Source: a phage
Strand: one strand, 5' to 3'
Length of the DNA stretch: 64,000 nt
NCBI GenBank assembly: GCA_023732985.1
Contig: GCA_023732985.1_3946.1
Below the pieces are notes generated by a model that did no database searches, was not told the DNA's origin, and worked only from the letters and a program-made list of their open reading frames with translations. Every line of letters starts with the position of its first letter. The first letter of the stretch is position 1. Positions 44,807-46,240 of this stretch are shown here, one piece after another. The translations under genes and the position numbers were made by a program.

Positions 44807-44932
44807 AGACCGTTTACAGCAAAACTTAAACAATCTATTTCTCCGGTAAAGAAAAGGCGAAGGTTCGATTCCTTCACTCGGCAGATGTCGAGTTGGTGTA
44901 ATGGTAGCACTTAAGATGATAAACAACGGTCT
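44807..44932 (+). ncRNA. tRNA-spacer hairpin element, copy 4, carrying a permuted tRNA-like module (candidate Y RNA-like tRNA mimic)
   Basis: closing stem AGACCGTT/AACGGTCT; inside, T-arm GAAGG-TTCGATT-CCTTC, then ACTCGGC, AGAT loop, GTCGAGT (7 bp acceptor-like helix), then D-arm-like GTGTAATGGTAGCAC. Confidence 0.4.
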
Positions 44933-45330: not shown

Positions 45331-45359
45331 TTGACATTGAGATGTGACTACTTTATAGT
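45331..45359 (+). promoter_or_regulatory. sigma70-like promoter
   Basis: TTGACA, 17 bp spacer, TATAGT. Confidence 0.5.
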
Positions 45360-45368
45360 AACCTTAGT

Positions 45369-45427
45369 TTTCGTTGCGTAGCGTCTATTTTGCAAATTTA
45401 AAATAAATGCAAACGACAATGTTTTTC
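45369..45427 (+). ncRNA. candidate small RNA (promoter to T-tract)
   Basis: about 60 nt between the promoter and an imperfect hairpin ending TGTTTTT; no ORF. Confidence 0.3.
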
Positions 45428-45563
45428 TGGCAGTAGCTTGATAGGCTAAACACCAGTGAGGTCTTCCAATCCCTCATCAAAGAATTTGGCGTACTCGCCC
45501 ACGGTATGATTAATAAGGTGGGCATCTTTAAGGGCTTTCTAAGAGAGTCTTTAAAGATAATTA

Positions 45564-45642
45564 CGGGGCGTATCTCAGCGGTCTTCTAAACCGCCGTTAA
45601 CCGAGTAAGTGGAGTATGCGGGTTCGAGTCCTGCCGCCTCGA
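45564..45642 (+). tRNA. tRNA-like gene, non-canonical fold, isotype unresolved
   Basis: 7 bp acceptor CGGGGCG/CGCCTCG and T-arm GCGGG-TTCGAGT-CCTGC, but D and anticodon arms could not be placed by hand. Confidence 0.35.
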
Positions 45643-45659
45643 CCAATTTTGGAGAAATC

Positions 45660-46007
45660 ATGAAAACTTGTATTAGGTGCAAACTTAGCAAGGATGAAAA
45701 TGATTTCTACATGAAAGATGGTAGGAGAACTCATTCATACTGTAAAAAGTGTGTTAATGAGCAAACCATAGAAAGACAAAGAGCACTTAAACTCTTAGCT
45801 ATTGAGTACAAAGGTGGGGTTTGTCATGATTGTGGTAAGAAGTATCATCCAGCAGTGTATGACTTCCATCATTTGAATCCTTCAGATAAAGATTTTAACA
45901 TTGGTCATAGGAAAAGCCTTAAGTTCTCTCAAGAACTAAAAGATGAACTTGACAAATGTGTTTTGCTATGTTCAAATTGCCATAGGGTAAGACATGCAAA
46001 ATATTAG
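45660..46007 (+). CDS. HNH homing endonuclease
   Basis: ATG at 45660 (track start overlaps the tRNA-like gene); CxxC pairs plus DFHHLNP...LLCSNCHRVRH. Confidence 0.65.
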   Translation: MKTCIRCKLSKDENDFYMKDGRRTHSYCKKCVNEQTIERQRALKLLAIEYKGGVCHDCGKKYHPAVYDFHHLNPSDKDFNIGHRKSLKFSQELKDELDKCVLLCSNCHRVRHAKY

Positions 46008-46144
46008 TTAGCAGATTACTTAGACGGCCTTAGCGGGTCTTCCTGTAGGGAGGTGGTCTGTATCTCATGTTTTCCAGAACATGTAAATAATCTGAGAAGG
46101 AGCTTGACAGTGTTGAGATAATACGGTAAGCTTCGAATTATAGT

Positions 46145-46224
46145 ATGGGACGATGTTAAGACTCTAAGGCATGAGCAACGGCTTCCAACACCGTTTCAAA
46201 GGGGTTCAACTCCTCCGTCCCATG
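46145..46224 (+). tRNA. tRNA-like gene, non-canonical fold (possible CCA anticodon, Trp)
   Basis: 7 bp acceptor ATGGGAC/GTCCCAT and T-loop TTCAACT; D region about 6 nt too long; candidate anticodon loop TTCCAAC. Confidence 0.35.
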
Positions 46225-46240
46225 CCAAAGTCTTATTAGG

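What the first reader, a model, noticed from the sequence alone, without database searches (positions are those of the whole stretch)
45564..46224. HNH endonuclease gene inside the tRNA cluster, flanked by two non-canonical tRNA-like genes
The HNH gene (45660-46007) lies between two tRNA-like sequences (45564-45642 and 46145-46224). Both have perfect 7 bp acceptor helices and good T-arms but are 79-80 nt, and their D and anticodon arms could not be fitted to a standard cloverleaf. This suggests tRNAs damaged or remodelled by insertion of the homing endonuclease, or unusual tRNAs such as a suppressor or a longer D-loop variant.
Basis: partly seen in the sequence, partly recalled or inferred. 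Interest (0 to 1): 0.45.

Follow-up and report, generated by a model that had tools for sequence, protein, structure and literature searches.

The report
Rewired phage tRNAs beside mobile HNH gene
The two odd tRNA-like genes are real, conserved transfer RNAs for arginine and tryptophan that the neighbouring mobile nuclease gene did not damage, and the arginine one belongs to a large phage-only family whose core is wired differently from the standard cloverleaf.

Summary
The window is a Felix O1-like phage (Felixounavirus). In detail: an HNH gene (45660-46007) lies between two tRNA-like genes that ARAGORN misses. The damage reading does not hold. About 90% of relatives lack the HNH gene yet carry identical T1 and T2, so the HNH is a clean, sporadic homing-endonuclease insertion in the spacer.

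T1 (45564-45645) has an ordinary acceptor stem, T arm and Arg(UCU) anticodon arm. Its D hairpin is missing. Instead, three bases just before the anticodon arm pair with three bases after it, followed by a D-loop-like UAAGUGGAGUAU. This helix is fully paired in 129 of 130 distinct relatives, with 13 pair combinations. A Levitt-type 15-48 pair covaries, and A follows GG in 127 of 130. Two scans that left the anticodon free returned only Arg anticodons. The family is large, in practice found only in phages, and sits in tRNA arrays. A sister genus has a canonical tRNA-Arg(UCU) in exactly the same slot. The phage uses AGA for 38% of its Arg codons.

T2 (46145-46227) is a tRNA-Trp(CCA)-like gene found only in Ounavirinae. 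It has a 10-nt acceptor-to-D connector and a 9-nt anticodon loop, and its four helices show compensatory changes.

I found no prior description. Function in translation is inferred, not shown.

The parts
45331..45359 (+). Sigma-70-type promoter (TTGACA-17-TATAGT) about 200 nt upstream of T1. No other good promoter lies before the HNH ATG, so it probably drives the leader, T1 and the HNH gene together.
   Evidence: Promoter scan, 11 of 12 consensus matches. Invariant in five related phages.
45360..45563 (+). Conserved leader between the promoter and T1. It contains a hairpin at about 45456-45475 (UGAGG-UCUUCCAAUC-CCUCA).
   Evidence: Conserved as far as Mooglevirus Sf18, with three compensatory double changes in the hairpin stem (alignment A4). 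Its role is unknown.
45564..45645 (+). T1, a non-cloverleaf tRNA-Arg(UCU). Layout: acceptor 5' strand 45564-45570; UAU 45571-45573; CUC 45574-45576 (equivalent to positions 23-25); A 45577; anticodon stem 45578-45582 with 45590-45594; loop 45583-45589 (anticodon TCT 45585-45587); bulge CGUUAACC 45595-45602; GAG 45603-45605 (equivalent to 10-12, pairs with CUC); D-loop-like UAAGUGGAGUAU 45606-45617; T arm 45618-45634; acceptor 3' strand 45635-45641; A73 45642; CCA 45643-45645.
   Evidence: Rfam tRNA 31.7 bits. Covariation on 51 sequences: 94.7% of cells paired, score 0.795 against 0.19 when shuffled. On 130 sequences the CUC/GAG-type helix is fully paired in 129. The 15-48-like pair covaries and A follows GG in 127 of 130. 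Only Arg anticodons were found.
45660..46007 (+). Free-standing HNH homing endonuclease gene (115 aa), with Shine-Dalgarno GGAG at 45651-45654. The inserted segment spans roughly 45648-46003. The stop codon TAG comes from the pre-existing spacer.
   Evidence: PHROG 2255 E 6e-39. Pfam HNH 17.6 bits, below cutoff. CxxC...HH...N...CxxCH motif visible in the translation. Present or absent at the same site among relatives.
46008..46144 (+). Conserved spacer. It contains a hairpin at 46066-46083 (CATGTT-TTCCAG-AACATG) and a promoter-like TTGACA (46104-46109)-17-TAAGCT (46127-46132) just upstream of T2.
   Evidence: Read directly from the sequence. Nearly invariant in five Felix-like phages and in Sf18. 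The scan tool did not list this hexamer pair; it listed a weaker TTGAGA-17-AATTAT at 46113-46141.
46145..46227 (+). T2, a non-canonical tRNA-Trp(CCA)-like gene. Layout: acceptor 46145-46151 with 46217-46223; 10-nt connector GAUGUUAAGA 46152-46161; D stem CUC 46162-46164 with GAG 46173-46175; D loop UAAGGCAU 46165-46172; anticodon stem 46177-46181 with 46191-46195; 9-nt loop 46182-46190 (CCA 46185-46187); UCAAA 46196-46200; T stem 46201-46204 with 46212-46215; T loop 46205-46211; G73 46224; CCA 46225-46227.
   Evidence: On 11 distinct Ounavirinae sequences, 99.5% of cells are paired and 8 pairs show double changes; slid controls show none. ARAGORN in mitochondrial mode calls it Trp(cca). A canonical tRNA-Trp occupies the same slot in VpaE1_ev78.

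Best explanation
T1 and T2 are functional phage tRNAs of non-standard architecture. The HNH gene between them is an unrelated, recently mobile homing-endonuclease insertion.

T1 most likely works as tRNA-Arg(UCU). That would supply the AGA codons, which the phage uses heavily and which are rare in E. coli (the host rarity is from general knowledge, not tested here). Its upper half is ordinary: acceptor stem, T arm, A73 and CCA. It should therefore be processed by RNase P and bound by EF-Tu like any tRNA (inferred). Its anticodon arm is also ordinary.

The core is rewired. The segment that normally forms positions 10-21 (the 5' strand of the D stem plus the D loop) lies after the anticodon arm instead of before it. 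The order is: acceptor, U8 A9, 22-25, 26, anticodon arm, a 3-8 nt bulge, 10-13, A14 R15 Y16 U17 G18 G19 A20 ... Y48, then the T arm. The D stem still forms and can still stack on the anticodon stem. The bases that build the tertiary core are all kept: U8, A14, R15-Y48 and G18 G19. So is A20, the main ArgRS identity base. The molecule can therefore plausibly fold into the usual L shape through a three-way rather than four-way junction (inferred from sequence; no 3D test was possible).

T2 most likely works as tRNA-Trp. It has the CCA anticodon flanked by U33 and A37, G73, and A1-U72. It keeps the normal order of arms but carries an 8-nt insertion before the D stem and an extra non-Watson-Crick layer (C.A) on the anticodon stem.

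The HNH gene is co-transcribed behind T1 and spreads by homing into the T1-T2 spacer. Why these tRNAs are built abnormally is not known. Escape from tRNA-targeting host nucleases, or from endonucleases that cut canonical tRNA genes, are the leading guesses.
For: Shown:
(1) T1 and T2 are identical with and without the HNH.
(2) T1 helices. On 51 sequences, 19 of 21 pairs show double changes. Pair 12-41 is UA 34, GC 9, AU 8 and pair 13-40 is CG 42, GC 5, UA 4, with no unpaired cell. A search that put no constraint on the 3' strand gave 130 distinct members. The helix is fully paired in 129, with 13 combinations; shuffles averaged 41 and never exceeded 56.
(3) The positions equivalent to 15 and 48 are A/U in 125, G/C in 4 and G/G in 1. 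The base after GG is A in 127 of 130.
(4) Two scans with the anticodon left free returned only Arg anticodons: UCU, CCU and UCG in one; UCU 62, CCU 5 and CCG 2 in the other.
(5) 55 of 70 loci lie in tRNA arrays. With one exception (L047), a canonical Arg(tct) gene accompanies T1 only where T1 carries a different Arg anticodon.
(6) Mooglevirus Sf18 has a canonical tRNA-Arg(UCU) in exactly the T1 slot, with flanks conserved to the base. Pectobacterium Ounavirinae likewise have a canonical Arg(tct) gene upstream of their T2.
(7) With T1 and T2 counted, the cluster covers all 20 amino acids; without T2 it has no Trp tRNA.
(8) AGA makes up 210 of 558 Arg codons in the window. The Felix O1 genome paper expected an AGA tRNA and found none (PMC3185647).
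(9) T2 helices covary, and a canonical tRNA-Trp replaces T2 in VpaE1_ev78.
(10) The HNH family assignment and its sporadic presence.
Against: There are no expression, aminoacylation or decoding data for either RNA.

The single-sequence fold of T1 is no more stable than shuffled sequence (z = -0.23).

The L-shape model for T1 is an inference from sequence equivalences, not a structural test.

Some family members lack an encoded CCA (47 of 130), and some have flanks that extend the acceptor helix. That is unusual for E. coli-type tRNA genes.

One locus (L047) has both a T1(UCU) and a canonical Arg(tct).

T2's diversity is small: 11 distinct sequences in one subfamily. Its base before the T stem is A, so it has no standard 15-48 pair.

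The searches were seeded with conserved motifs, so family consensus statements partly reflect the patterns used.
Confidence: 0.7

Rival explanations
1. T1 and T2 are tRNA genes damaged or remodelled by the insertion of the homing endonuclease. That would make them decaying pseudogenes.
For: Both flank an HNH gene. ARAGORN does not call them. Tracts that look like tRNA fragments exist nearby at 44826-44915.
Against: The sequences are identical in the roughly 90% of relatives that lack the HNH. The HNH indel lies wholly in the spacer. T1's architecture is shared by at least 130 distinct sequences from unrelated phage families, with compensatory changes in every helix. T2 shows compensatory changes across four Ounavirinae lineages.
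Confidence: 0.02
2. T1 is not used for decoding. It is a tRNA-Arg mimic, for example a decoy or inhibitor for a host nuclease or toxin that attacks tRNA-Arg, or for a phage factor. Its altered body would make it resistant or a better trap.
For: The anticodon loop and the ArgRS-type features are conserved while the body is abnormal. Phage tRNAs are known to counter tRNA-cleaving defences (PMC10264068, PMC11464382). Defences that cut the tRNA body exist; Septu cuts the variable loop of tRNA-Tyr (PMC13096335). One member sits next to an RNA ligase gene.
Against: The anticodon switches among UCU, CCU, UCG and CCG in a way that complements the canonical Arg tRNAs of the same array. That pattern is what decoding predicts. 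T1 occupies the slot of a canonical tRNA-Arg(UCU) in a phage with very high AGA use and no other AGA-reading tRNA. A decoder that also resists nucleases would satisfy both ideas.
Confidence: 0.15
3. T1 and T2 are cis elements rather than tRNAs. They could be RNase P 'punctuation' that releases the downstream HNH mRNA, or DNA-level recognition or immunity sites for homing endonucleases.
For: HNH genes of at least four or five different lineages start 2-70 nt downstream of T1-type genes in unrelated phages. A paralogous HNH sits just 3' of the tRNA-Trp in VpaE1_ev78.
Against: Most T1 loci have no downstream HNH. Conservation is at the RNA-structure level, through compensatory changes, not at the DNA-sequence level in the stems. 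A processing signal or a DNA site would not need Arg-only anticodons or an A20-like base.
Confidence: 0.05
4. T2 is a specialised Trp tRNA with altered decoding, for example near-cognate reading of UGA, by analogy with tRNA-Trp(CCA) variants that have altered anticodon stems.
For: By standard numbering the 31-39 position of T2 is C.A (C.C in Pectobacterium phages). [quoted passage not shown]
Against: TGA is an ordinary stop codon in the window: 12 of 52 long ORFs end in TGA. The published 4-bp-stem cases were not compared structurally with T2. No in-frame TGA was looked for or seen.
Confidence: 0.08

Closest known systems
Canonical phage tRNA-Arg(UCU), for example the gene in Shigella phage Sf18 (Mooglevirus) at the same locus
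   Same: Same genomic slot with identical flanks. Nearly the same anticodon arm (ACGGU-CUUCUAA-ACCGU is also found in many T1-type members). Same T loop, a D-loop sequence with A14, A15, G18, G19 and A20, and an encoded CCA.
   Different: In T1 the block equivalent to positions 10-21 lies 3' of the anticodon arm. There is no D hairpin and no ordinary 44-48 variable loop, and the junction is three-way. ARAGORN does not recognise it.
D-armless and other truncated mitochondrial tRNAs, such as metazoan mt-tRNA-Ser (review PMC7609411)
   Same: No D hairpin between the acceptor stem and the anticodon stem. Missed by standard tRNA finders.
   Different: The mitochondrial tRNAs have lost the D stem and the G18 G19 elbow contacts, and they need adapted partner proteins. 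T1 keeps a covarying 3-bp D-type helix, the GG dinucleotide, and A14, R15-Y48 and A20 equivalents, at 79 nt full length. It presumably uses ordinary bacterial enzymes. A 2024 paper states that all known bacterial tRNAs are cloverleaf (PMC11551756, abstract seen).
Circularly permuted tRNA genes (Cyanidioschyzon merolae type)
   Same: The order of tRNA segments in the gene differs from the standard order.
   Different: Those genes place the whole 3' half before the 5' half and are processed back to a normal cloverleaf. In T1 the 5' and 3' ends are normal and only an internal 12-nt block is transposed. No processing route that could restore the standard order is known in bacteria, so the mature RNA would itself be rewired.
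Free-standing homing endonucleases in phage tRNA clusters, such as T4 SegB (PMC2330249). From my own recollection, the T5 F-Tfl HNH enzymes are a second example.
   Same: A small nuclease gene inserted between tRNA genes, sporadically present among close relatives, with no intron or intein. A paralogue travels with a different tRNA allele in VpaE1_ev78.
   Different: SegB belongs to the GIY-YIG family, whereas this protein is HNH (PHROG 2255). Cleavage activity and target site were not tested here.
tRNA-Trp(CCA) with a shortened anticodon stem (PMC13092985); tRNA-Sec and allo-tRNAs with 8/4 or 8/5 acceptor/T geometry
   Same: T2 has a non-standard anticodon stem-loop: 5 Watson-Crick pairs shifted up by one, with C.A at 31-39. 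Its acceptor and T stems could also be read as 8+4 pairs (G8-C65).
   Different: T2 has no long variable arm and no 6-bp D stem. Rfam tRNA-Sec scores only 16.9 bits against a cutoff of 47. I know of no counterpart in those families to the 10-nt acceptor-to-D connector.

Membership tests
Standard elongator tRNA (cloverleaf, Rfam RF00005) | 7-bp acceptor stem, discriminator base and 3' CCA | tested here: met
   T1: 7 pairs (one G-U), A73, CCA encoded. T2: 7 Watson-Crick pairs, G73, CCA encoded. Both stems covary.
Standard elongator tRNA (cloverleaf, Rfam RF00005) | T arm: 5-bp stem and 7-nt GTTCRANYC-type loop | tested here: met
   T1: GCGGG-TTCGAGT-CCTGC. T2: (A)GGGG-TTCAACT-CCTC(C), that is 4 pairs plus A.C. 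There is a G-C to U-A compensatory change in Sf18.
Standard elongator tRNA (cloverleaf, Rfam RF00005) | Anticodon arm: 5-bp stem and 7-nt loop with U33 and a purine at 37 | tested here: inconclusive
   T1 meets it fully (CUUCUAA). T2 has a 5-bp covarying stem but a 9-nt loop; a 7-nt loop is obtained only by counting a C.A layer.
Standard elongator tRNA (cloverleaf, Rfam RF00005) | D hairpin (10-25) lying 5' of the anticodon arm, joined to the acceptor stem by 2 nt | tested here: not met
   T1 has no D hairpin; the two D-type strands lie on either side of the anticodon arm. T2 has a D hairpin, but the connector is 10 nt. ARAGORN calls neither.
Standard elongator tRNA (cloverleaf, Rfam RF00005) | Score at or above the Rfam gathering threshold (29 bits) | tested here: inconclusive
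   T1 scores 31.7 bits, with the D arm deleted and a 20-nt insert. T2 has no RF00005 match.
tRNA-Arg (E. coli ArgRS identity set: C35, U/G36, A20, A/G73; from established knowledge, reviewed in PMC9976931) | C35 with U36 or G36 in the anticodon | tested here: met
   The window has UCU. Every member found in the two scans that left the anticodon free carries UCU, CCU, UCG or CCG.
tRNA-Arg (E. coli ArgRS identity set) | A20 directly after G18 G19, and a purine at 73 | tested here: met
   A follows GG in 127 of 130 members. The discriminator is G in 69, A in 46, U in 12 and C in 3. The window has UGGAG and A73.
tRNA-Arg (E. coli ArgRS identity set) | Charged with arginine by ArgRS | not testable with these tools
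   Needs in vitro aminoacylation or acid-gel Northern analysis.
tRNA-Trp (E. coli TrpRS identity set: CCA anticodon, G73, A1-U72; from established knowledge) | Anticodon CCA, G73, and a first pair of A1-U72 | tested here: met
   UCCAA is invariant in all 11 distinct T2 sequences and G73 is invariant. Pair 1-72 is A-U in 7, G-U in 3 and G-C in 1. Charging was not testable.
D-armless mitochondrial-type tRNA | D stem and the G18 G19 elbow contact lost and replaced by a short unpaired loop | tested here: not met
   T1 keeps a covarying 3-bp helix, an invariant GG and a covarying 15-48-like pair.
tRNA-Sec / allo-tRNA | 13-bp (8/5 or 9/4) or 8/4 acceptor-T domain, long variable arm and extended D stem | tested here: not met
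   Rfam tRNA-Sec gives 16.9 bits against a gathering score of 47 for T2. The variable region is 4-5 nt and the D stem 3 bp. An 8/4 reading is possible but rests on invariant bases.
Free-standing HNH homing endonuclease | HNH (beta-beta-alpha-metal) nuclease motif | tested here: met
   PHROG 2255 at E 6e-39. CxxC...HH...N...CxxCH seen in the translation. Pfam HNH is below its cutoff at 17.6 against 21.4 bits.
Free-standing HNH homing endonuclease | Present or absent at one site among otherwise collinear relatives | tested here: met
   About 26 of 266 relatives cover at least 80% of the query; the rest lack roughly 355 bp at the same junction.
Free-standing HNH homing endonuclease | Site-specific cleavage of the gene-less allele, followed by gene conversion | not testable with these tools
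   Needs a nuclease assay on the CCAAT|TTAGTTAGC junction and mixed-infection crosses.

The most novel reading that the evidence does not exclude
T1 represents a large, phage-specific class of arginine tRNAs that work with ordinary bacterial translation enzymes although their secondary structure is not a cloverleaf. The block 10-21 is transposed to the 3' side of the anticodon arm. This gives a three-way junction that rebuilds the normal tertiary core through different chain connectivity. It would be the first natural non-cloverleaf tRNA family acting in bacterial cells. It may have been selected because the rewired body escapes tRNA-targeting defence nucleases, or endonucleases that cut canonical tRNA genes.
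Probability: 0.45. Interest if true: 0.9.

Novelty: new variant of a known kind. Interest (0 to 1): 0.8.

Why it matters
The cloverleaf is treated as universal outside mitochondria. A recent paper that set out to engineer E. coli to use a non-canonical tRNA states that all known bacterial tRNAs are cloverleaf (PMC11551756).

A natural, abundant, phage-borne tRNA-Arg family with a rewired core would have several consequences:
- It would show that bacterial ArgRS, RNase P, EF-Tu and the ribosome tolerate a different chain topology.
- It would give ready-made scaffolds for engineering tRNAs that do not cross-react with host enzymes.
- It would explain the 'missing' AGA tRNA noted for Felix O1 (PMC3185647).
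- It would expose a systematic annotation gap. Homologues are unannotated, or labelled tRNA-OTHER, tRNA-Leu(taa) or tRNA-Val(aac).
- It would offer a testable link between tRNA body structure and the current wave of tRNA-cleaving anti-phage defences.

The HNH result itself is ordinary.

Tried and rejected
- ARAGORN with default, intron and lowered-threshold settings. It never gives a sensible call for T1, and lowered thresholds give only spurious calls. In mitochondrial mode it calls T2 Trp(cca), but with a D-arm model that the covariation does not support. The two ARAGORN 'Arg(tct)' calls that overlap family members borrow flanking sequence as the acceptor stem and are artefacts.
- Pairing of T1's CUC with the second GAG (in UGGAG). 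Rejected because that GAG is invariant while CUC varies.
- Reading the CGUUAAY bulge as the anticodon loop, which is the basis of the GenBank labels Leu(taa) and Val(aac). Rejected because no stem closes it, and the bulge is only 3-5 nt with unrelated sequence in other subfamilies.
- An alternative T2 helix, AUGUU/GGCAU. It is incompatible with the covarying CUC/GAG helix and reduces to all-wobble pairs in Pectobacterium phages.
- A structural module (GUUAANN) shared by T1 and T2. Weakened, because it is confined to one T1 subfamily.
- A search for T2 outside Ounavirinae. The IMG/VR pattern scan returned only Ounavirinae-type sequences plus random matches.
- T1 in cellular genomes. Only 4 true hits, all on metagenome-assembled contigs.
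- Weak Rfam hits to tmRNA and permuted tmRNA upstream of T1 (16 and 32.5 bits, below the 47-bit threshold). Treated as noise.
- Nine literature searches found no description of this architecture. One further search call failed on a term that was too short. Subscription-only papers are not covered.
- Single-sequence thermodynamic folding was uninformative for T1 (z = -0.23).
Full report
**What the window is.** A 1.2-kb query around the finding matches 266 phage records. The best are Escherichia phages warpig and Alf5 at about 98.6% identity, and Felix O1 at 95%. The window is therefore a Felixounavirus (Ounavirinae). ARAGORN finds 25 tRNA genes between 43987 and 49369, all on the + strand. None lies at 45564-45642 or 46145-46224. 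None of the 25 reads Trp, and none is Arg(UCU).

**Checking the observation.** The sequence is as described.
- The ORF 45660-46007 (115 aa) has a GGAG 6 nt before its ATG. It matches PHROG 2255 'HNH endonuclease' at E 6e-39. The Pfam HNH hit is sub-threshold.
- T1 (45564-45642, plus an encoded CCA) has a 7-pair acceptor stem with one G-U, and a standard T arm.
- T2 (46145-46224, plus an encoded CCA) has a perfect acceptor stem and a 4-pair T stem.
- Rfam's tRNA model accepts T1 at 31.7 bits (threshold 29), but only by deleting the D arm and inserting 20 nt after the anticodon arm.
- T2 gets no tRNA hit, only tRNA-Sec at 16.9 bits against a threshold of 47.

T1's anticodon arm is entirely normal: GCGGU-CUUCUAA-ACCGC, anticodon UCU.

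**The HNH gene did not remodel the tRNAs.**
- In an alignment with four relatives, DaR-2019a and VSe11 lack the HNH gene but have T1 and T2 identical to the window. The difference is a clean indel in the spacer: CCAAT | TTTGGAG…AAATA | TTAGTTAGC.
- Only about 26 of 266 relatives carry the gene at this site.
- Two T1 alleles in Felix-like phages differ by a compensated pair in the anticodon stem. Both occur with and without the HNH.
- In VpaE1_ev78 the T2 slot holds a canonical 71-nt tRNA-Trp followed by a 134-aa ORF. That ORF is a paralogue of the window's HNH: same PHROG, 33% identity.

The HNH genes therefore behave as free-standing homing endonucleases. They sit just 3' of tRNA genes and can carry a neighbouring tRNA allele with them. 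T4 SegB does this in its own tRNA cluster (PMC2330249). This part of the finding is ordinary.

**T1 is a member of a large family.**
- A sensitive BLAST with 96 nt around T1 found 81-90% identical sequences in unrelated cultured phages. They include jumbo phages PHA46 and 121Q, T5-like Roth39 and Kamaji, Mydovirus KB57, phi92-like Antha and VEcB, rV5-like W70, and Streptomyces phages Yaboi and Genie2.
- A scan of one genome from each of 185,579 bacterial and archaeal species found four true copies. All are on metagenome-assembled contigs. In practice the family is confined to phages.
- 55 of 70 loci lie within 1.5 kb of other tRNA genes.

**The structure of T1.** On 51 distinct sequences the helices are as follows.
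- The acceptor stem, anticodon stem and T stem covary strongly.
- A fourth helix joins the three bases that follow acceptor-UAU (CUC in the window, 45574-45576) to the three bases that precede UAAGUGGAGUAU (GAG, 45603-45605).
- In that helix one pair is an invariant C-G. The second is UA 34, GC 9, AU 8. The third is CG 42, GC 5, UA 4. No cell is unpaired.
- Overall, 94.7% of cells pair. The covariation score is 0.795, against 0.19 for shuffles and at most 0.16 for slid partners.

Those sequences came from patterns that fixed part of the 3' region. I therefore repeated the test with a scan that constrained only TATC, the anticodon loop and the T loop.
The helix is fully paired in 129, in 13 combinations. 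The commonest are CUC/GAG 46, CGG/CCG 45, CCC/GGG 9, CGC/GCG 8, CAC/GUG 7 and CAG/CUG 5.
- Shuffling the partners gives a mean of 41 fully paired and a maximum of 56.
- The loop between the anticodon stem and the 3' strand of this helix is 8 nt (CGUUAANN) in the window's subfamily. Elsewhere it is only 3-5 nt, with a different sequence.

**Mapping T1 onto the standard tRNA.** The helix's 5' strand runs straight into the 5' strand of the anticodon stem, so it corresponds to standard positions 23-25 (with 26 next). Its partner corresponds to 10-12. What follows that partner reads like a normal D loop: U13 A14 A15 Y16 U17 G18 G19 A20.

The last base before the T stem behaves like position 48. The '15' and '48' bases are A/U in 125 members, G/C in 4 and G/G in 1. 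That is the classic Levitt-pair pattern. The base after GG is A in 127 of 130, matching A20, the main ArgRS identity element.

The order of parts is therefore [1-7][U8 A9][22-25][26][27-43][bulge][10-21][48][49-65][66-72][73][CCA]. The 10-21 block has moved to the far side of the anticodon arm. All four helices and all the usual core bases are kept, but the junction is three-way. That this folds into an L shape is my inference. No 3D test was possible.

**Evidence that T1 is used as tRNA-Arg.**
- Two scans left the anticodon unconstrained. The first (70 stretches, most of them family members) gave only UCU, CCU and UCG. The second gave UCU 62, CCU 5 and CCG 2. All are arginine anticodons.
- In arrays where the T1-type gene carries UCG or CCU, a canonical Arg(tct) gene is also present. 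Where T1 carries UCU, a canonical Arg(tct) is absent, with one exception.
- Mooglevirus Sf18 has a canonical tRNA-Arg(UCU) in exactly the T1 slot, with flanks conserved to the base on both sides. Pectobacterium Ounavirinae also have a canonical Arg(tct) gene upstream of their T2.
- The window's long ORFs use AGA for 210 of 558 arginine codons, or 14.9 per thousand. The Felix O1 genome paper remarked that an AGA tRNA was expected but not found (PMC3185647).
- CCA is encoded in 83 of 130 members, and the discriminator is a purine in 115 of 130.

None of this shows charging or decoding. I put the probability that T1 is a working decoder at about 0.7.

**T2.** Homologues occur only in Ounavirinae: Felixounavirus, Mooglevirus, Suspvirus and Pectobacterium phages. 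There are 11 distinct sequences. On them, 99.5% of cells pair and eight pairs show changes on both sides. Slid controls show none.
- The anticodon stem changes from AACGG/CCGUU to GUAAG/CUUAC and GUAGG/CCUAC.
- The D stem changes from CUC/GAG to CAC/GUG.
- A T-stem pair changes from G-C to U-A.

The order of arms is normal, but two features are not.
- The acceptor stem is joined to the D stem by 10 invariant nucleotides (GAUGUUAAGA) instead of 2.
- The anticodon loop has 9 nt (CYUCCAAMM). Put another way, a C.A or C.C layer closes a normal 7-nt loop with U33, C34 C35 A36 and A37.

G73, A1-U72 and the CCA anticodon fit E. coli tRNA-Trp identity (established knowledge). With T2 counted, the cluster covers all 20 amino acids. 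A canonical tRNA-Trp replaces T2 in VpaE1_ev78. T2 is therefore most likely the phage's tRNA-Trp.

[quoted passage not shown] TGA remains an ordinary stop codon here, ending 12 of 52 long ORFs.

**Context.**
- A near-consensus promoter (45331-45359, 11 of 12 matches) lies 200 nt upstream of T1.
- The intervening leader is conserved as far as Sf18 and contains a hairpin with three compensatory double changes.
- The HNH ATG is 14 nt after T1's CCA with no good promoter between, so the HNH gene is probably co-transcribed with T1.
- TTGACA-17-TAAGCT at 46104-46132 lies just upstream of T2 (read from the sequence).
- In other phages, HNH genes of several different lineages (HNH_3 type, T5-type and others) start 2-70 nt after the T1-type gene. 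Most T1 loci have no such gene.

I read this as homing endonucleases exploiting, and helping to spread, a very conserved tRNA gene. I do not read it as a functional dependence.

**Comparison with what is known.** Rfam 15 has no separate family for either RNA.
- The 2020 review of non-canonical tRNAs (PMC7609411) lists tRNA-Sec, tRNA-Pyl, allo-tRNAs and truncated mitochondrial tRNAs. It never mentions phages or viruses, or a three-way junction.
- T1 differs from D-armless mitochondrial tRNAs because it keeps the D helix and the elbow bases.
- T1 differs from permuted tRNA genes because its ends are normal and only an internal block has moved.
- Nine full-text searches found no description. The library omits most subscription journals, so prior description cannot be excluded.
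- GenBank annotations of homologues are inconsistent: none at all, tRNA-OTHER, tRNA-Leu(taa) or tRNA-Val(aac).

**Verdict.** The HNH-damage idea is refuted, and the HNH gene is an ordinary mobile element. The two flanking genes are conserved, structured and almost certainly functional non-canonical tRNAs.

T1 is the notable one. It belongs to a widespread, Arg-specific, phage-only family whose covariation-supported secondary structure is not a cloverleaf. Why this architecture exists is unknown. Evasion of tRNA-directed defences, or of endonucleases that cut canonical tRNA genes, are the hypotheses to test.

Noticed in passing
window 44826-44915: An orphan T arm (GAAGG-TTCGATT-CCTTC) is followed by ACTCGGC-AGAT-GTCGAGT, a 7-bp hairpin that looks like an acceptor stem closed by a loop. 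Then comes a D-arm-like TGGTGTAATGGTAGCAC. It reads as a 3' tRNA fragment directly followed by the 5' fragment of the same tRNA, in permuted order. Rfam tRNA gives only a partial 22-bit hit.
   Followed up: partly
window 45360-45563: The roughly 200-nt leader between the strong promoter and T1 is conserved as far as Mooglevirus Sf18. Its hairpin (UGAGG-UCUUCCAAUC-CCUCA versus CAGGG-UAUUCCAACU-CCCUG) has three compensatory double changes. It may be an undescribed structured RNA. Weak sub-threshold Rfam tmRNA hits overlap it.
   Followed up: partly
window 45464, 46072, 46183: UUCCA sits in the loops of three hairpins within 750 nt: the leader hairpin, the spacer hairpin CATGTT-TTCCAG-AACATG, and the T2 anticodon loop. 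The background rate is 1.4 per kb, so this may be chance.
   Followed up: partly
L001 (VpaE1_ev78) 1351-1840: A canonical 71-nt tRNA-Trp plus a paralogous HNH gene (same PHROG 2255, 33% identity) replaces T2 at the same site. It looks like a tRNA-plus-endonuclease cassette swapped in by homing.
   Followed up: partly
L005, L006, L011, L029, L049, L059, L089 (just 3' of the T1-type gene): HNH endonuclease genes of several different lineages (HNH_3 type, T5-like, a short HNH) start 2-73 nt downstream of T1-type tRNAs in unrelated phages. This is a recurrent association. I did not test it against the background density of endonuclease genes in tRNA arrays.
   Followed up: partly
L038 955-1036 and downstream: An RNA ligase gene (Pfam RNA_ligase PF09414 plus a PHA02142 OB-fold domain) starts 38 nt after a T1-type tRNA. 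That tRNA lacks CCA, and its flanks extend the acceptor helix to about 14 bp.
   Followed up: no
L022, L020, L032, L047, L049, L010, L023, L051 (T1-type genes): A subset of family members lacks an encoded CCA and has 5' and 3' flanks complementary for a further 5-11 bp beyond the acceptor stem. This suggests a different processing route for these precursors.
   Followed up: no
L007 (121Q), L012 (Yaboi), L006 (Roth39), L009 (Antha): Public annotations of T1 homologues disagree: tRNA-Leu(taa), tRNA-Val(aac), tRNA-OTHER, or nothing. The Leu and Val labels appear to come from reading the CGUUAAY bulge as the anticodon loop.
   Followed up: yes
L208 (IMG/VR contig, 88.6 kb): Two different T1-type tRNA-Arg copies lie on one contig. 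Both have G at the position equivalent to 15 and C at the one equivalent to 48.
   Followed up: no
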